Source of the DNA: an uncultured Alphaproteobacteria bacterium
GTDB lineage: Bacteria > Pseudomonadota > Alphaproteobacteria > Rhizobiales > Methyloligellaceae
Assembly (NCBI GenBank): GCA_963730335.1
Contig: CAVSRK010000002.1
Location: 1,730 to 65,729, forward strand
Reading direction: 5' to 3'
Length of the DNA stretch: 64,000 nucleotides
Below are positions 1 through 7,435 of the stretch, one piece after another; positions within the stretch are counted from its first letter, which is position 1; each line of letters begins with the position of its first letter. The notes beneath the pieces were generated by a model. It made no database searches and was not told the DNA's origin. It saw nothing but the letters and a program-made list of their open reading frames with translations. Both the position numbers and the translations under genes were made by a program.

Positions 1-346
1 CGGGCGCGAAGGCGGCTACGGCAATTACATCCGTCTCCGCCACGCCAACGGCTTCGCCACCGCCTATGGCCACATGTCGCGCTTCGCCGCCGGCGTCGAG
101 CCCGGCGTCACCGTCAAGCAGGGCCAGATCATCGGCTATGTCGGCTCGACCGGCATGTCGACCGGGCCGCATTGCCATTTCGAGGTGCTGGTCAACGCCA
201 AGTTCGTCAACCCGATGACCATCCAGGTGCCGCGCGGGCTGCAGCTCACCGGCCGCCAGCTCGCCGAGTTCCAACGCGAGCGCGGCCGCATCGAGACGCT
301 GATGCAAATGGACCCGGTCACCAGCCGCGTCGCCCAGGCCAACTGA
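1..346 (+). CDS. M23 family metallopeptidase, C-terminal part (5' end outside window)
   Basis: Frame 2 is open from base 2: GREGGYGNYIRLRHANGFATAYGHMSR...GSTGMSTGPHCHFEV, which carries the M23 HxH zinc motif. Confidence 0.92.
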   Translation, partial: GREGGYGNYIRLRHANGFATAYGHMSRFAAGVEPGVTVKQGQIIGYVGSTGMSTGPHCHFEVLVNAKFVNPMTIQVPRGLQLTGRQLAEFQRERGRIETLMQMDPVTSRVAQAN

Positions 347-363
347 CTTCGTCAGCCTTTTTT
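343..363 (+). terminator. Possible intrinsic terminator after the M23 gene
   Basis: CTGAC-TTC-GTCAG hairpin followed by CC and a T6 run; the stem is short (5 bp). Confidence 0.4.
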
Positions 364-427
364 CCTTCCCCTCTCCCAAGTCTCTCCACTCCCTCCCCTT
401 CTTTTTGCGCGTCGCACTTTTTCCTTC

Positions 428-457
428 GTCATAGCCGGGCTCGTCCCGGCCATCCAC
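428..457. repeat. REP-like palindromic element (half copy)
   Basis: GTCATAGCCGGGCTCGTCCCGGCCATCCAC contains a GCCGGG/CCCGGC stem. It closely resembles the GTCATGGCCGGGCTTGTCCCGGCCATCCAC intergenic repeat I recall from Rhizobiales. Confidence 0.7.
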
Positions 458-489
458 TTGTGACTCTCGACAAGACGTAGCGCTGCGAC

Positions 490-588
490 TCGGCGGGGTT
501 CTCGCCCTGGTCGAACAGCCAGGAATTGACCGCGTATTTCTGCCCGGTCTTGGTCTCCTTCAGCACCGCGGTGAAATGCGGCCAATAT
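490..588 (-). pseudogene. C-terminal fragment of a conserved alphaproteobacterial hypothetical (putative lipoprotein) gene
   Basis: YWPHFTAVLKETKTGQKYAVNSWLFDQGENPA resembles the recalled PHxTAVI.E..G..(Y/W)AVDSW...G..A tail of a conserved family. No N-terminal part is present. Confidence 0.55.
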
Positions 589-836
589 TTCACCCTATGC
601 AGAAGGGGGCGAGCACTCGGTTTCAAACGGGCTACTGTTGAGGCGCGACATACATTGCTTGTTCGACCTCGGCTATGTCACCGCGACACCCAAACACATT
701 TTTGAAGTCAGTCCGCGCATTAGGGAGGAATTTGAGAATGGGCGGGACTACTACGCATTGCAGGGGAGGTCACTGATACTCCCAGTTCGCAACGACCTGA
801 GGCCCGAACAAGCAGCCCTCGAATGGCACAACAACG
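578..836 (+). pseudogene. HNH endonuclease (HNH_2-type) C-terminal fragment
   Basis: Frame 2 reads AANISPYAEGGEHSVSNGLLLRRDIHCLFDLGYVT...ALEWHN, the HNH_2 core and tail. There is an in-frame TGA at 572-574, no start codon or N-terminus, and the first His of AAHI reads N. Confidence 0.8.
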
Positions 837-839
837 GGA

Positions 840-1485
840 CACAGGGTTCTGAAGTTCGTCACGCACAGCGCAACCGTACTCAAGATTGCGATTGCCCATG
901 GCTGGTTGCCTGGGGCGAGATACACCAATCTGCGCGACGTAAGGAGGTTTCCACAGCTGGGCTTTCTAGACATTGACTGGAGAAGATACGACTTCGCGCG
1001 TCACCTCGAAACAACGAGAATCACAAGACCGCTAATGACCGTCGCTCGGGATATCGAAAATCACCGGGACCTGCGTCGCACAATTGATCAAGCGTTTAGG
1101 CTGCTTGAGTTTGCCCGATATGTGGTCGTCGTACCCAAAGATCCGCTGCTTGAAAGCAGGCTGAATGAGGCGATACCCGCGGAGTTCTTGTTAGGTTTCA
1201 GTGTACCCACACGATATGGAGGTACCAAGCTCTCGCCAAGCGCATTTAGAGACCTGTTCACTTGCTGGGTGGGCGACCGGATGTGCAACGAAAGCTGGGG
1301 GATGCGATGCCGGTGTTCAGCATCGACGCCAACCGCTTCACCTTAGATGCCGCATTCGGAGACTACTTCGATGGCGAAATCTTTCGGCGGCACCCCGTCG
1401 GCGGCTTCAAACTTGTCTCTCGGATTCGGTAAAGAATATCACCTCTCTTTGGAACGGTTACAACAATGACCGACACATTCAGTAA
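840..1485 (+). pseudogene. DUF6610-like / TGT-fold-like protein with two -1 frameshifts
   Basis: Joined frames give HRVLKFVTHSATVLKIAIAHGWLPGARYTNLRDVRRFPQLGFLDIDWRRYDF...SPSAFR / PVHLLGGRPDVQRKLGDAMPVFSIDANRFTLDAAFGDYFDGEIFRRHPVGGFK / TCLSDSVKNITSLWNGY. Shifts are at about 1251 and 1410. Family name is from memory. Confidence 0.65.
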
Positions 1486-2106
1486 GGAGAAGGCCCGCTC
1501 CGAATTCCTGATTGCAATGTAGAATCAGATGATGAACGACATAAACCGGCACATTGTCGTTGTATGGCAGTCAGTCAGCGTTCTCGTCGGTGCGTTCGCA
1601 GCGTGGTCGCTTATTGAGAAAAAAATCATTTCACTCGACATAGCCGCCACGCTCATCGTCATTATCACGATCTGGGTGATTGCTCACGTTATGACGCTGC
1701 GTACTGGTACAATTGAAATTTGGTGATCATCGCGAACATCGAGCGTCAATTTCTTACAAAGAAGGACCTGAAAGAAATTCATTATTATTTCGGCGCGCAC
1801 AGAAGCAAAACGTCCATGCTAACGCATTTGCAGTTGCAGCTGTTTTTGGCAATAGGAGTTGCAGGCCTCGTCCTTGGCATTCAGTTCTTTGATCAAGTAT
1901 GGCCGGCGCTCCCCGACGTGTGCGCCATCCCGCCAGTGAGCTTAGTACCGTGGCTAACAGCGCTAATTGGTATCGGCATATGGTACTATCGACGCGGACT
2001 TGCTCAGCGAAAATACGCTGAGTTTCTCAAGAATTCTCCTGGCAAAAGCGTCGATGCCAGCGGCATTACTTTCGGCGTCGGTCACCCCACAGACGCCGCT
2101 AAGTAG
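1466..2106 (+). pseudogene. Four-TM membrane protein, disrupted
   Basis: ATG at 1466 gives MTDTFSKEKARSEFLIAM*NQMMNDINRHIVVVWQS, with TAG at 1520-1522. A -1 shift at about 1690 continues as YDAAYWYN*NLVIIANIERQFL, with TGA at 1714-1716. Four hydrophobic segments; stop at 2106. Confidence 0.7.
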
Positions 2107-2115
2107 CGCGTTCAG

Positions 2116-4719
<2,604 letters not shown>

Positions 4720-4800
4720 CGGTCTTTAGCCCCTCTGGTGGCCGGAGATCTGAGGGTGGTGGCGGGGTCGGCTGCTAATAGCGCACGCAGCTTAACGGAC

Positions 4801-4829
4801 ATATAGCGCCGCGTTTACCCCTGAAAAAG
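4801..4829 (-). promoter_or_regulatory. Candidate RpoH (sigma32) promoter of clpB
   Basis: Minus strand reads CTTTTT-N16-GCTATAT, versus the alphaproteobacterial RpoH consensus CTTGAA-N15/16-CCTATAT. The -35 match is weak. Confidence 0.4.
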
Positions 4830-5017
4830 GGGATCGAGATGTGGAGGGCCGTGTCACAGTTGCCGGCCTTCGCGGGCACAAAAATGTCCGGGAGGCCCCT
4901 CGGCTCACCGGGTCGGGAGTGGTCTCGTTGGGCTGATGGGACTAGGGCGGATCTGATCCGTTCTGCTCGCACCCGGCAGCGCGGCCTTGCCGCCGTGCCG
5001 CGCCTGGCCGGCGTCCG

Positions 5018-5401
5018 TTATTGCCCGCAGACGCTCGAGCCTGTGGTGCAGACGTAAGGCACGACGACGCCGGTGAAGCACGTGGTGTAGAAGCGCGAGG
5101 TGACGAGGTCCGGCTTCAGCTGCGCATAATCCGGAACGCCATCGGGACGCACCATCTTCCAGAACGGATCGCCCTTCACCTTGCGCGCGGTGAGGCTCAT
5201 CGAGCTCCAGCCATTGGCCTGCTTCAGCTCGCCGGCGCTCGCCAGCGCAAGGGCACGGGACATCTGCGCGGCTTCCGCCGGGGAGCCGGCGCTATGTGTG
5301 GCCTTGACCAATTGGCATGCCGCCAGAGCCGGCGATGCCAACGGCGACAGCAGCGCAACCCCGATCGCCGCCACACCCACCATTCTCGAAATTTGACGCA
5401 T
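5018..5401 (-). CDS. Hypothetical secreted protein
   Basis: MRQISRMVGVAAIGVALLSPLASPALAA signal peptide, GGAG RBS upstream, four Cys in the mature part. Confidence 0.7.
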   Translation of the reverse strand: MRQISRMVGVAAIGVALLSPLASPALAACQLVKATHSAGSPAEAAQMSRALALASAGELKQANGWSSMSLTARKVKGDPFWKMVRPDGVPDYAQLKPDLVTSRFYTTCFTGVVVPYVCTTGSSVCGQ

Positions 5402-5448
5402 GTCGCACTCTCCAACGAAAGACATGCGTCGAGACTGCGCCGATACGG

Positions 5449-5463
5449 CTAATTTGCGGTTAA
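5449..5463 (-). promoter_or_regulatory. CtrA-box-like site
   Basis: Minus strand TTAA-CCGCAAA-TTAG (7/8 match to TTAA-N7-TTAA), about 50 bp upstream of the 5401 start. Confidence 0.45.
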
Positions 5464-5555
5464 TCGGGCCCGGTTCGGGCCAAGCCGCACAGGCGCAGCC
5501 GGACCCGCGCCGTAAGAGCGACGAGGCAACAGGCTAGAGCTAGAGTACTGAGACC

Positions 5556-6140
5556 TCAGCTCACCGGGTCGGTAGAGGTCTCGTCGGTGGCTTGCGCTTC
5601 GGGCTGATCGGCGCCGTTCTGCTCGCGAGAGGCCTCGTGGCCATTGCCGCCATGGCGGTTCCGGTCGCGTCCGCCGGGATGGTGCTCGCGATTGCCGGCA
5701 TGACGCTCGCGGTCCTGACCCCCGCCCCCTTGGCGAAGGTGGTCGCCGCCGCCTTCGGCGCGGATCTCGCCACCGCCGCCTTCGTTGACATCGTCGTCGA
5801 TGCCTTCGTCGTCAGAGTTCCAGCGCGGGTTGCGATATGAGCCGCCGCCGTTAGGGCCTTCGCCCGCTTGAGAATTGGGCTGCCCGCTGAACTGGGTCTG
5901 CGCCGCCATGATGATGCGGTTATAATGCTCGGCGTGCTGGAGATAGCTCTCCGCCGAGACCATGTCGCCGGAGGCGAGCGAGTCGCGCGCGAGCGACATA
6001 TATTTCTCGGCGATATGCGCCGCGGTCCCGCGGATCTTCACGTCGGGGCCATTCGATTCGTAGTTCCGCGCTAACGGATTTTGGGGCTTACGGCCACTAC
6101 CGCGGCCGCGGCCCCTGCGATTCTGCTGTCCTTGCCTCAT
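5556..6140 (-). CDS. DUF4167 domain protein with disordered C-terminus
   Basis: MRQGQQNRRGRGRG...RNYESNGPDVKIRGTAAHIAEKYMSLARDS...YLQHAEHYNRI. Confidence 0.9.
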   Translation of the reverse strand: MRQGQQNRRGRGRGSGRKPQNPLARNYESNGPDVKIRGTAAHIAEKYMSLARDSLASGDMVSAESYLQHAEHYNRIIMAAQTQFSGQPNSQAGEGPNGGGSYRNPRWNSDDEGIDDDVNEGGGGEIRAEGGGDHLRQGGGGQDRERHAGNREHHPGGRDRNRHGGNGHEASREQNGADQPEAQATDETSTDPVS

Positions 6141-6562
6141 TTCCTTCTGTTCTCTTATAGGCGGGTCTGTCCCCGCGTCCTGCTCCCTGCTCACTCCCTG
6201 CCACGGCGGGTCTTAAGCCCCTACGCGCTCAGCGTCCGGAACGCCGGATCGGCCGTGCAGTCATCCTAGCCTGCGCTGTTCGTGCCTTGTTATGAGTCGA
6301 AACTCCGGCGCTAAGCGTCCTAGAGTCCTTCAGCTAGCGCCAGCCAACCTCAATCTGTTGGGCGGTTGAGCGTCTCCTGAACGTCCCGAGAGGCAGAGGC
6401 CTTTCAATCGAGGTTCACGAAAATCCGCTCTAGTTGCCGTTGCTACCGGCGGCGCCTCCCAAGCGCCAAATGGCCGATAGCCGTTCGCTGGCGACGAACC
6501 TAACCTGAACATAGGGGTTCTCCAAGCCTTTTTTTGGCCTTGCGACCCCGAGTCCACCCCGG

Positions 6563-7435
6563 TCACAAGCCGCAAGCAACCACGCGCGGCCGCCCGGCCA
6601 GGTCGCGGCTGATGGCTTGGGACGGGTCGAGTTTGAGCCCGGCCGCGCGAAAAATATCCGACACTTGGGCCGCTTGGCCGGCGCCGATTTCGACCAGCAG
6701 CCGGCCCCCCTCGGCCAGGACCGCCGGCGCGCCCGCGGCAATGCGGCGATAAGCGTCAAGCCCATCGGGGCCGCCATCAAGGGCGAGCATCGGGTCGTAA
6801 GCGGCGACCTCTGGGGCCAGACCGGAGATCTCGCCTGAGGCCAAATAAGGCGGGTTGGACAGAACCAAATCGAACTTGCCAGCGATGCCGTCGAGCCAAT
6901 CGGCGGCCATAAAGGCGGCGCGCGAGCCCACACCGAGGCGGACGGCATTGGCGGCGGCAAGCGCCAAAGCGCTCGGGCTGAGATCAGTGCCGAGCCCTTG
7001 CGCGCGCGGCAGCTCGGCCAGCAGGGTGACGAGGATGCAGCCGGTGCCGGTACCGAGATCGAGCAGGCTGAGCGTCCGGTCGCGCCAGCCGCGCCGCTCG
7101 ACTACAGCGAGCGCCGCCTCGATCAGGGTCTCGGTATCGGGGCGCGGGTCGAGCGCCGGTGGGGCGATGGTGAAGCCACGACCATAGAACTCGCGGGTGC
7201 CGGTGATCCTCGCCACCGGCTCGCGCTTGAGCCGCCGGTCGATGGCCGTGCCGAAGCGCGCCAACGTCGCGGGCTGAACAGGACCGCCGGCGCCGGCGAC
7301 ATAGGCCTCGTGGCTCAGGCCGGCGGCGTGGCAGAGCAGCAGCCGCGCGTCGAGCTCGGGCGTGGTGATCCCCGCTTCACGCAAAACGGCGGCCGCGCCG
7401 ACGAAGGCCTGGTTCAAGGTCACGGGCTCAGGCAT
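6563..7435 (-). CDS. prmC: Release factor glutamine methyltransferase PrmC/HemK
   Basis: [17 protein letters not shown] and SNPPY motifs; overlaps the prfA stop. Confidence 0.96.

What the first reader, a model, noticed from the sequence alone, without database searches (positions are those of the whole stretch)
578..2106. Eroded lower-GC cassette: HNH nuclease + TGT-like (DUF6610-like) protein + 4-TM effector, a candidate undescribed defence module
Seen in sequence: three co-directional, closely packed reading frames lie between M23 and clpB. The TGT-like stop overlaps the TM start (1466-1485). GC is visibly lower: sampled 60-nt lines gave 40% and 53%, versus 67% in a sampled clpB line. The ORF track shows only fragments, and the genes appear only after repairing 3 frameshifts and 2 premature stops. 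Established knowledge: HNH_2 nucleases and small multi-TM proteins are common effectors of restriction and abortive-infection systems. Inference: the intact ancestor was an anti-phage or base-modification-linked module, possibly a base-exchange/sensing enzyme coupled to a membrane effector, now decaying. I know of no named system with this combination.
Basis: partly seen in the sequence, partly recalled or inferred. Interest (0 to 1): 0.75.

Follow-up and report, generated by a model that had tools for sequence, protein, structure and literature searches.

The report
Dead DpdA-like enzyme plus membrane partner
The region is a decayed foreign insert holding a nuclease remnant and a broken copy of an undescribed two-gene unit, a relative of viral enzymes that swap modified bases into DNA plus a membrane protein, which is always paired in bacteria from at least ten phyla.

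Summary
Window 576-2106 has low GC (0.43-0.58, against 0.60-0.70 in the flanks) and lies between an M23 peptidase gene and clpB. It carries three same-strand pseudogenes: a 5'-truncated HNH_2 nuclease, a DUF6610 gene and a 4-TM gene. I count three frameshifts and two nonsense codons, plus a deleted HNH/DUF6610 junction.

- DUF6610 and the 4-TM gene form a real, obligate pair. All 57 informative genome loci, from at least 10 phyla, have a TM-family gene beside DUF6610. It usually overlaps the DUF6610 stop. The pair has lower GC than its flanks in 41 of 42 loci.
- DUF6610 is the Pfam family that matches DpdA4, the DNA 7-deazaguanine transglycosylase predicted in haloarchaeal viruses. A mycobacteriophage fuses the domain to ParB at the head of a preQ0 gene cluster.
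- The HNH is not part of the module. It is adjacent only in this window's lineage and two related contigs.
- Defence is unproven. PADLOC gives no hit for either pair protein, and neighbourhoods are mostly housekeeping.

My best reading is a dead copy of a mobile, membrane-anchored nucleic-acid base-exchange module. The TM partner has no Pfam family and no structural relative. The held literature does not describe the bacterial pair.

The parts
491..575 (-). Short high-GC relic of an unrelated minus-strand gene (about 33 codons, ...YWPHFTAVLKETKTGQKYAVNSWLFDQGENP). It lies between two junctions and is not part of the module.
   Evidence: Six-frame translation. No Pfam or plasmid match. L069 has 150 extra bases exactly at 490/491, and identity changes there from 93% to 99.4%.
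576..835 (+). HNH_2 nuclease pseudogene. Only the C-terminal roughly 87 codons of a 308-aa type IV-like restriction endonuclease gene remain.
   Evidence: PF13391 at 28.2 bits, profile 39-63 of 66. 75-82% identical to 'putative restriction endonuclease' proteins. The full-length orthologue is L079:741-1664, and tblastn with it matches residues 209-300 in L066 and 211-300 in L069, the near-identical copies of this locus; blastn aligns window 576-831 to L079 1381-1636 at 74% nt identity.
822..1485 (+). DUF6610 (DpdA4-like TIM-barrel transglycosylase homologue) pseudogene. The start region is destroyed, and there are frameshifts at 1250/1251 and 1406/1407.
   Evidence: PF20314 profile 1-198 of 198, E 2.7e-50. 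84-87% identical to intact P0001/P0002. Nucleotide alignment to intact L078. L069 lacks the 1406/1407 lesion.
1466..2106 (+). Pseudogene of the obligate 4-TM partner of DUF6610. It has TAG at 1520-1522, a frameshift at 1689/1690 and TGA at 1714-1716.
   Evidence: 88% identical to intact P0121. Lesions mapped. The start overlaps the DUF6610 stop by 20 nt.

Best explanation
Shown. Window 576-2106 is a pseudogenised, horizontally acquired mini-island inserted next to clpB. It holds two independent things.
- A relic of a reader-HNH (type IV-like) restriction endonuclease gene.
- A dead copy of a conserved, translationally coupled two-gene operon: DUF6610 plus a 4-TM protein. The operon is scattered by horizontal transfer through at least 10 bacterial phyla.

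Inferred. When intact, DUF6610 is a minimal, strongly basic TIM-barrel enzyme of the TGT/DpdA superfamily, closest to viral DpdA4.
- It exchanges a base in nucleic acid, most likely guanine in DNA for a 7-deazaguanine-type base taken from the host queuosine pathway.
- Aspartates at the C-terminal ends or in the post-strand loops of barrel strands (D47, D74, D166) would act as acid/base, base recognition and nucleophile.
- The 4-TM protein is its obligate partner. Its conserved N-terminal helix, TM2-TM3 loop and C-terminal NSPGK...GHP tail all face the cytoplasm. I take them as a docking or regulatory platform that holds the enzyme at the inner face of the membrane.
- TM3 and TM4 would be mere anchors.

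In this window the system is non-functional, and relatives show that the decay happened stepwise.
For: Pairing.
- A TM-family gene is adjacent in all 57 loci that have an intact DUF6610 and enough flanking sequence.
- In 43 of them it is a full-length gene directly downstream on the same strand.
- No other neighbour family is conserved.
- Pairwise identities of the two proteins correlate (r = 0.82).

Horizontal transfer.
- The pair has lower GC than its flanks in 41 of 42 loci, by 7.8 points on average, p = 1e-12.
- It sits in unrelated contexts.

Enzyme family.
- The Pfam DUF6610 match covers the full profile.
- PMC10516641 reports that halovirus HVTV-1 DpdA4 matches DUF6610 at 100% HHpred probability and TGT (PF01702) at 92.5%. 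It also reports that this genome has 30% of its G replaced.
- tblastn gives about 30% identity to halovirus proteins, E 1e-12 to 1e-14.
- Mycobacteriophage Rinkes gp1 is a ParB-DUF6610 fusion (hhalign 99.4%). It heads a folE-dpdA-queC-queD-queE cluster. This parallels DpdA with the ParB-like DpdB (PMC10164549).
- The AF2 model has pLDDT 91.6 and is an alpha/beta barrel.
- Foldseek against BFVD puts a ParB fusion first and a halovirus protein second, followed by phage DpdA proteins annotated 'queuine tRNA-ribosyltransferase' and a Cellulophaga phage phiST protein, the phage in which PMC10516641 identified DpdA3.
- Foldseek against PDB finds TGT at TMq 0.57-0.59.
- Median pI is 9.95 and net charge +12. 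Many of the invariant residues, among them the proposed catalytic Asp, sit at strand C-termini or in the loops after them.

TM partner.
- 25 of 44 residues in the cytoplasmic loop are invariant, while TM3, TM4 and the outer loop are poorly conserved.
- The family is compact: 455 representatives, nearly all 190-250 aa, without recurrent fusions.

Decay.
- L079 keeps the HNH and DUF6610 intact but has a broken TM gene.
- L069 lacks one of the window's frameshifts, and P0366, a cluster relative, reads through both DUF6610 frameshift sites.
Against: - No biochemical data exist for any bacterial DUF6610.
- The authors could not get DpdA4 to work in E. coli.
- My own profile comparisons with DpdA and Tgt were not significant (probability 2%). 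HMM searches found no TGT hit.
- PDB Foldseek ranks generic TIM barrels above TGT.
- No 7-deazaguanine synthesis gene and no preQ1 riboswitch accompanies the bacterial pair.
- There is no precedent for a membrane-tethered DNA transglycosylase.
- Physical interaction between the two proteins was not modelled.
Confidence: 0.45

Rival explanations
1. Abortive-infection or defence pair. DUF6610 senses or attacks incoming phage DNA, for example by excising or swapping out 7-deazaguanine or another base. The 4-TM protein is the effector that collapses the membrane. In this lineage the adjacent HNH adds a restriction layer.
For: - Small, low-GC, horizontally mobile and easily lost module.
- Some neighbours are defence proteins: QatA, SIR2-pAgo, AbiEii x2, KAP NTPase x2, PDC-S28, PDC-S02.
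- It sits next to a type IV-like HNH in this lineage.
- Glycosylases that target modified phage DNA are a known defence principle (10.1101/2025.10.29.685425).
Against: - PADLOC gives no hit for either protein.
- All five Pfam-annotated neighbourhoods are housekeeping or metabolic.
- Several Acidoferrales species representatives share the same flanking genes, which suggests vertical inheritance.
- The TM protein's conservation lies in cytoplasmic polar motifs. Its membrane helices 3 and 4 are variable, unlike a pore.
Confidence: 0.2
2. Enzyme plus transporter. The 4-TM protein imports the base substrate (preQ0, preQ1, queuine or another nucleobase) that DUF6610 inserts. The module is then self-sufficient in any host.
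For: - Precedent: in Streptococcus phage MS1 a Vut_1 (YhhQ-like) membrane protein gene overlaps the start of dpdA.
- The bacterial pair carries no base-synthesis genes.
- The two genes are translationally coupled.
Against: - No similarity to Vut_1, QueT or any other Pfam transporter.
- No structural match to any transporter; the best PDB E-value is 0.2.
- Only four helices. TM3, TM4 and the outer loop are poorly conserved, while the invariant residues face the cytoplasm.
Confidence: 0.12
3. The enzyme acts on RNA (tRNA or rRNA) or on a nucleotide or small molecule rather than DNA. The module is an accessory RNA-modification or metabolic function.
For: - The TGT superfamily is mostly tRNA-directed (established knowledge).
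- Housekeeping-type neighbourhoods and the shared Acidoferrales flanks.
- Variant operons add a CxxCxxCC (PF03692) protein or a GNAT acetyltransferase.
Against: - The closest characterised relatives are associated with DNA modification: DpdA4, and the ParB fusion in a phage dpdA/preQ0 cluster.
- The protein lacks the extra tRNA-binding and Zn subdomains of TGT. It is 216 aa, with a single invariant Cys.
Confidence: 0.12
4. Addiction (toxin-antitoxin-like) module. The membrane protein is toxic, DUF6610 neutralises it, and this explains the spread as a selfish two-gene unit.
For: - Strict pairing, overlapping genes and mobility.
- In L079 the TM gene died first while DUF6610 stayed intact.
Against: - Both proteins are far more conserved (46-80% and 35-75% identity across phyla) than typical TA pairs.
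- DUF6610 keeps a full enzyme-like set of invariant residues.
- No TA family matched.
Confidence: 0.05

Closest known systems
DpdA4 of haloarchaeal viruses (HVTV-1 gp69; PMC10516641)
   Same: - Same Pfam family (DUF6610).
- About 30% identity over 92% of the protein to the HF1/HF2/HRTV homologues.
- Same fold class.
- A halovirus protein is the second-best structural match in BFVD.
   Different: - The bacterial subfamily is much more conserved and shorter (about 216 aa).
- It is chromosomal and always paired with a 4-TM protein.
- It is never next to preQ synthesis genes.
- DpdA4 was described as specific to archaeal viruses, and its activity is inferred, not reconstituted.
Bacterial Dpd system: DpdA with the ParB-like DpdB (PMC10164549)
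   Same: - TGT-superfamily DNA base exchange with catalytic aspartates.
- A ParB-DUF6610 fusion in phage Rinkes mirrors the DpdA-DpdB partnership.
   Different: - No ParB, DpdC or DpdD-K genes beside the bacterial pair.
- No significant sequence-profile match to DpdA.
- The partner is a membrane protein.
Vut_1 (YhhQ-like) membrane protein plus DpdA in Streptococcus phage MS1
   Same: A membrane protein gene overlapping a DNA transglycosylase gene.
   Different: - The MS1 partner is a 6-TM Vut_1 transporter.
- The partner here has 4 TM helices, no Pfam family, no transporter-like fold and cytoplasm-facing conservation.
Reader-HNH type IV restriction endonucleases (e.g. NCBIfam NF045808, phosphorothioated-DNA-binding restriction endonuclease)
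   Same: - The C-terminal HNH_2 nuclease domain of the full-length orthologue aligns to the C-terminal part of that model, positions 164-283 of 284.
- The architecture is an N-terminal domain of about 180 aa followed by HNH.
   Different: - Score 54 bits against a cut-off of 180.
- The N-terminal domain has no match, so specificity is unknown.
- In the window only the last roughly 87 codons survive.

Membership tests
Pfam PF20314 (DUF6610) | Full-length match to the family profile above the gathering score | tested here: met
   171.2 bits against a cut-off of 27, profile 1-198 of 198, on the frame-repaired window protein. All close homologues carry PF20314.
TGT/DpdA superfamily | (beta/alpha) barrel fold resembling TGT/DpdA | tested here: met
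   AF2 pLDDT 91.6. BFVD Foldseek finds phage DpdA proteins annotated 'queuine tRNA-ribosyltransferase' at E 1.5e-5 to 1e-4, after two DUF6610-type proteins. PDB TGT 2pwu and 1p0e score TMq 0.57-0.59, but generic TIM barrels rank higher.
TGT/DpdA superfamily | Detectable sequence-profile homology to TGT (PF01702) or DpdA | tested here: inconclusive
   No TGT hit in Pfam at E <= 1. No PDB sequence hit. hhalign against 7 phage DpdA plus E. coli Tgt gives probability 2%. The literature reports 92.5% HHpred probability for DpdA4 against PF01702.
TGT/DpdA superfamily | Three invariant active-site aspartates: acid/base, base recognition and nucleophile (PMC10164549) | tested here: inconclusive
   D47, D74 and D166 are invariant and lie at or just after strand ends, in the expected order. 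The only, non-significant, hhalign alignment pairs VFSID(166) with the DpdA motif PWxSxDSSSW. No structural superposition was available.
tRNA-guanine transglycosylase (bacterial Tgt) | Cys3His zinc site and C-terminal subdomain (from established knowledge) | tested here: not met
   The protein is 216 aa with only one invariant Cys (C196) and no CxCxxC motif.
7-deazaguanine DNA modification clusters (dpd or phage) | Genomic linkage to folE/queC/queD/queE or other dpd genes | tested here: not met
   No recurrent neighbour family other than the TM gene within 6 kb on either side in 60 loci. No que genes in the annotated contexts. The feature is met only for the phage ParB-DUF6610 relative.
Known anti-phage defence systems (PADLOC-DB 2.0) | HMM match of the component proteins | tested here: not met
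   No hit for DUF6610 or for either TM type. Only the HNH matches generic HNH models.
Defence-island gene | Consistent enrichment of defence genes in the neighbourhood | tested here: inconclusive
   Of 134 neighbour ORFs, some are QatA, SIR2-pAgo, AbiEii, KAP NTPase or PDC-S28/S02. Five fully annotated contexts are housekeeping. No genome-wide background was computed.
Pfam PF13391 (HNH_2) | Match above the gathering score | tested here: met
   Window relic: 28.2 bits against a cut-off of 21, C-terminal part of the profile only. Full-length orthologue in L079: 43.2 bits, profile 1-65 of 66.
NCBIfam NF045808 (phosphorothioated-DNA-binding restriction endonuclease) | Whole-protein score above the curated cut-off (180 bits) | tested here: not met
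   32.8 bits for the relic and 54.2 bits for the full-length orthologue, C-terminal nuclease domain only.

The most novel reading that the evidence does not exclude
The intact DUF6610/4-TM operon is a new class of bacterial nucleic-acid base-exchange system that works at the cytoplasmic membrane. It would either mark DNA with a deazapurine-type base, or act on DNA as it enters the cell, for example by stripping or replacing protective 7-deazaguanines in phage DNA. Its membrane subunit belongs to a protein family with no known relatives. It spreads as a self-contained two-gene cassette across bacterial phyla.
Probability: 0.3. Interest if true: 0.8.

Novelty: new variant of a known kind. Interest (0 to 1): 0.55.

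Why it matters
- DpdA4/DUF6610 was described as specific to archaeal viruses. This work shows a tightly conserved bacterial branch, found in at least 10 phyla, that is always coupled to an unknown membrane protein.
- If it modifies DNA, many soil and water bacteria carry an unrecognised epigenetic or anti-restriction mark. It would be made by a roughly 1.3-kb cassette, the smallest such system known.
- It would also link nucleic-acid base exchange to the membrane, which has no precedent.
- Several cultured strains carry intact copies: Bradyrhizobium sp. Tv2a-2, Stutzerimonas nosocomialis A31/70, Rheinheimera aquimaris KCTC 12840, Gulbenkiania mobilis DSM 18507 and Legionella maceachernii ATCC 35300. 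The question is therefore directly testable.
- The copy in this window is dead and of little functional consequence for its host.

Tried and rejected
- HMM search of the PDB with the DUF6610 profile gave only chance hits.
- hhalign of DUF6610 against Rinkes DpdA, E. coli Tgt and a 7-8 sequence DpdA/Tgt alignment was not significant.
- Foldseek of the TM model against the PDB found nothing better than E 0.2, and the top hits were designed helical bundles.
- Pfam, NCBIfam, PHROGs and PADLOC gave no meaningful match for the TM protein; the only hits were two weak PHROG matches (E 0.021, 'endolysin'; E 0.12) that I take as chance.
- Rfam found no riboswitch or other RNA in window 1-6000 or in 11 intact loci; the only hits were two tRNAs at least 2.5 kb from the pair.
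- No flanking direct repeats, promoter or terminator define cassette ends. Only the M23 gene terminator at 343-355 was found.
- The 33-codon minus-strand relic at 491-575 could not be identified.
- 'HNH is part of the system' is rejected, because the HNH is absent from all 60 genome loci and from the other metagenome loci.
- 'The module is plasmid- or phage-borne' is rejected. tblastn found only haloarchaeal plasmids, plus haloviruses and a few Mycobacterium and Erwinia phages, all below 60% identity.
- The organism of the window could not be named. The ClpB cluster has a single unnamed member.
Full report
1. WHAT IS IN THE WINDOW

GC drops from 0.60-0.70 to 0.43-0.58 between about 500 and 2100. 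The region lies between the 3' end of an M23 peptidase gene and clpB. The M23 gene stops at 346 and has a terminator-like hairpin at 343-355. clpB runs 2116-4719 on the minus strand.

The mechanical ORF list shows only fragments. Six-frame translation shows three same-strand coding remnants.
- 576-835 encodes the C-terminal part of an HNH_2 nuclease. It scores 28.2 bits on PF13391 (cut-off 21), covering profile positions 39-63 of 66.
- About 846-1485 encodes a DUF6610 protein once two frameshifts are bridged. It matches PF20314 over profile 1-198 of 198, E 2.7e-50.
- 1466-2106 encodes a roughly 213-aa protein with four hydrophobic helices. It has no meaningful hit in Pfam, NCBIfam, PADLOC or PHROGs.

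I aligned the DNA to an intact relative, L078, which is about 80% identical at nucleotide level and 84% at protein level. This places the lesions exactly:
- 1-nt deletions at 1250/1251, 1406/1407 and 1689/1690;
- TAC to TAG at 1520-1522;
- AGA to TGA at 1714-1716.

Two larger defects add to these.
- The HNH lacks about 210 N-terminal codons.
- The HNH 3' end, the intergenic spacer and the first DUF6610 codons have been deleted. HNH '...EWHNN' now abuts DUF6610 '...VLKFV' in a different frame, and the only ATG (822) is out of frame.

The DUF6610 stop overlaps the TM start by 20 nt, as in intact relatives.

2. THE DECAY IS RECENT AND STEPWISE

- A JGI contig (L066) with an identical ClpB carries the same pseudogenes at 99.8% identity.
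- Another contig (L069) is 99.4% identical over 491-1609 but only 93% identical in the M23 gene. It has 150 extra bases exactly at 490/491, and it lacks the 1406/1407 frameshift.
- An ENA contig (L079) is the orthologous clpB-adjacent locus, 88% identical over 847-2236. It has an intact 308-aa HNH and an intact 218-aa DUF6610, but its TM gene is broken independently by a stop after codon 141 and further lesions.
- Members of the 90% cluster include a 218-aa intact DUF6610 and a 196-aa variant that reads through both DUF6610 frameshift sites.
- The segment 491-575 is a roughly 33-codon relic of some unrelated minus-strand gene that I could not identify.

3. THE DUF6610/TM PAIR IS A CONSERVED UNIT AND THE HNH IS NOT PART OF IT

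A search of 5.8 billion proteins gave 1218 DUF6610 relatives, typically about 216 aa and very conserved. It gave 942 relatives of the TM protein, about 210 aa, none with a Pfam domain.

A scan of one genome per species returned 60 loci. They come from:
- Alpha-, Beta- and Gammaproteobacteria;
- Acidobacteriota, Planctomycetota, Verrucomicrobiota and Gemmatimonadota;
- Chlamydiota, Chloroflexota, Deinococcota and Omnitrophota;
- a clostridial MAG.

tblastn with the repaired TM protein found a homologue in 57 of these loci. The other three are uninformative: two have the contig ending at or inside DUF6610, and one is itself a 65-codon DUF6610 fragment.

In 43 loci the TM gene is a full-length gene directly downstream on the same strand. 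Others are cut by contig ends or frameshifted.

Seven loci show a second architecture:
- a diverged, roughly 275-aa, 5-TM homologue is transcribed divergently upstream;
- a CxxCxxCC (PF03692) protein follows DUF6610.

Two loci insert a GNAT acetyltransferase between the genes.

Clustering all neighbouring ORFs showed that no other family recurs beyond close relatives.

Three further measures fit a co-inherited, horizontally moving unit.
- Pairwise identities of the two proteins correlate, Pearson 0.82.
- The pair has lower GC than its flanks in 41 of 42 loci, by 7.8 points on average, Wilcoxon p = 1e-12.
- An exhaustive HMM search found only 455 TM-family representatives among 1.84 billion. 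Nearly all are 190-250 aa, without recurrent fusions.

The HNH behaves differently.
- Neither the relic nor the full-length orthologue matches any of the 60 genome loci or the other metagenome loci.
- It accompanies the pair only in this window's lineage (L066, L069, L079) and in two JGI contigs that hold the closest intact pair. There a TetR gene lies downstream rather than clpB.
- HNH homologues occur elsewhere without DUF6610.
- Even a close relative, L078, has no HNH upstream.
- Between the window and L079 the HNH is 74% identical at nucleotide level, against 88% for the pair.

The full-length HNH is an N-terminal domain of about 180 aa with no family match, followed by a C-terminal HNH_2 domain. 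That C-terminal domain resembles the nuclease end of the NCBIfam phosphorothioated-DNA-binding restriction endonuclease model. The score is 54 bits against a cut-off of 180, so it is not a member. It is best described as an independent type IV-like restriction gene that happens to sit beside the pair.

4. WHAT DUF6610 IS

Only one work in the held library mentions DUF6610. PMC10516641 (also held as its bioRxiv preprint) shows that the predicted DNA transglycosylase of halovirus HVTV-1 (DpdA4) matches PF20314 at 100% HHpred probability and TGT (PF01702) at 92.5%. It reports that the HVTV-1 genome has 30% of its G replaced by a 7-deazaguanine. It calls the subfamily specific to archaeal viruses, and it reports that attempts to test DpdA4 in E. 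coli failed.

My own evidence is as follows.
- tblastn of an intact bacterial protein against 50,697 phage genomes hits haloviruses at about 30% identity over 73-92% of the protein, E 1e-11 to 1e-14. It also hits gene 1 of three mycobacteriophages.
- In phage Rinkes, gene 1 is a ParB-like domain fused to a DUF6610 domain (hhalign 99.4%, E 7e-22).
- That gene is followed directly by folE, a dpdA-like gene, queC, queD and queE.
- The fusion mirrors the partnership of DpdA with the ParB-like ATPase DpdB in the bacterial Dpd system (PMC10164549).
- The AF2 model (pLDDT 91.6) is an alpha/beta barrel.
- In BFVD its best matches are a ParB fusion (TMq 0.79, E 2e-15) and a halovirus protein. Next come phage DpdA proteins annotated 'queuine tRNA-ribosyltransferase' and a Cellulophaga phage phiST protein, the phage in which PMC10516641 identified DpdA3.
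- In the PDB, TGT appears at TMq 0.57-0.59 among generic TIM barrels.
- The protein is strongly basic, with median pI 9.95 and net charge +12.
- Many invariant residues lie at the C-terminal ends of the barrel strands or in the loops after them. They include D47, D74 and D166, in the order expected for the three catalytic aspartates of TGT and DpdA.

Sequence-profile tests of my own against DpdA and Tgt were not significant. The only alignment produced pairs VFSID with the DpdA nucleophile motif. Superfamily membership therefore rests on fold and on the literature, and the catalytic mapping is an inference.

The protein lacks the zinc site and extra subdomains of Tgt. No que genes or preQ1 riboswitch accompany the bacterial pair.

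5. WHAT THE TM PARTNER IS

The AF2 model (pLDDT 80) shows four long helices. It has no structural relative in the PDB; the best E-value is 0.2.

Conservation is uneven.
- The TM2-TM3 loop (YWYNRNLVIIANIERQFL...HYYFGxHR) has 25 invariant residues out of 44.
- TM1 has 11 invariant residues.
- The C-terminal tail (NSPGK...GxGHP) has 9.
- TM3, TM4 and the loop between them are poorly conserved.

The distribution of Lys and Arg puts the N-terminus, the central loop and the tail in the cytoplasm. This looks like a membrane anchor that presents a conserved cytoplasmic surface. It does not look like a pore or a transporter.

6. GENOMIC CONTEXT

Among 134 ORFs within two genes of the pair, some are defence proteins: QatA, SIR2-pAgo, AbiEii x2, KAP NTPase x2, YobI ATPase, PDC-S28 and PDC-S02. 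Integrases or transposases flank some loci. Many other neighbours are housekeeping genes.

Five neighbourhoods with precomputed Pfam annotation are all housekeeping or metabolic. Examples are ychF/pth, beta-oxidation genes and formate dehydrogenase-like genes.

Several Acidoferrales species share the same flanking genes, which indicates vertical retention.

The bacterial pair is absent from 72,556 plasmids and 50,697 phage genomes; all matches there are below 60% identity. Defence-island association is therefore at best partial.

7. EXPLANATION

Shown.
- The region is a dead, foreign mini-island.
- It contains an HNH relic plus a broken copy of a conserved bicistronic DUF6610/TM operon.

Inferred.
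- The intact operon encodes a DpdA4-like base-exchange enzyme that acts on nucleic acid, most likely DNA, using a host-supplied 7-deazaguanine-type base.
- The enzyme is held or regulated at the inner face of the membrane by its obligate partner.

Confidence is about 0.45. The rivals are:
- a defence pair with a membrane effector (0.2);
- an enzyme plus base importer, as in phage MS1, where a Vut_1 membrane protein gene overlaps dpdA (0.12);
- an RNA or small-molecule substrate (0.12);
- an addiction module (0.05).

8. NOVELTY AND VERDICT

The enzyme family is known by name and has one predicted function, in archaeal viruses. Three things are not described in the held literature or in the Pfam, PADLOC, PHROGs or NCBIfam libraries:
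- the bacterial branch;
- its invariable membrane partner, a family with no Pfam model and no structural relative;
- its variant architectures.

I rate it a new variant of a known kind. The window's own copy is non-functional. Its value is as a pointer to the intact module, which several cultured strains carry.

Noticed in passing
L076 (Mycobacterium phage Rinkes) 1-4143: Gene 1, annotated 'ParB-like nuclease domain protein', is a ParB + DUF6610 fusion (hhalign 99.4% over residues 192-410). It heads a folE / dpdA-like / queC / queD / queE cluster, so this phage carries two transglycosylase-type proteins.
   Followed up: partly
L085 (Streptococcus virus MS1) 1-1474: A 6-TM Vut_1 (YhhQ-like vitamin/preQ uptake) membrane protein gene overlaps the start of the phage dpdA ('queuine tRNA-ribosyltransferase'). 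This is a precedent for a membrane protein coupled to a DNA transglycosylase.
   Followed up: no
L015, L021, L026, L029, L040, L047, L089 (about 5000-7300 in each locus): Second architecture of the module. A divergently transcribed 5-TM homologue of about 275 aa lies upstream, then DUF6610, then a roughly 210-aa CxxCxxCC (PF03692, YkgJ-like) Cys-cluster protein. L042 and L052 instead have a GNAT acetyltransferase or a spacer between DUF6610 and a TM-like gene.
   Followed up: partly
L005 1126-2829 (minus strand): The TM-family ORF runs on for 567 aa. It continues through an extra hydrophobic segment into a domain with an HxHxDH (HAHGDH) metallo-beta-lactamase-like motif. This is either a real fusion or a lost stop codon.
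   Followed up: no
window 490/491; L069 567-716: A related contig is 93% identical to the window in the M23 gene but 99.4% identical from 491 onwards. It has 150 extra bases exactly at that junction. This suggests recent recombinational exchange of the already-decayed cassette between strains.
   Followed up: partly
L079 2420-3060: In the orthologous clpB-adjacent locus of a relative, the HNH and DUF6610 are intact but the TM gene carries its own, different stop and frameshifts. The membrane partner was therefore lost independently, and there it was lost first.
   Followed up: partly
window 425-455: A GC-rich hairpin-forming element (GCCGGGCTCGTCCCGGC) lies in the spacer after the M23 gene. 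It looks like a REP-type intergenic repeat. I did not check whether it recurs elsewhere in the window.
   Followed up: no
L075 (Halorubrum trapanicum plasmid pCBA1232-02) 3947-6388: A 333-aa haloarchaeal DUF6610 protein lies two genes upstream of an ArdC-like (anti-restriction type) ssDNA-binding protein on a plasmid. No 4-TM partner is annotated beside it.
   Followed up: no
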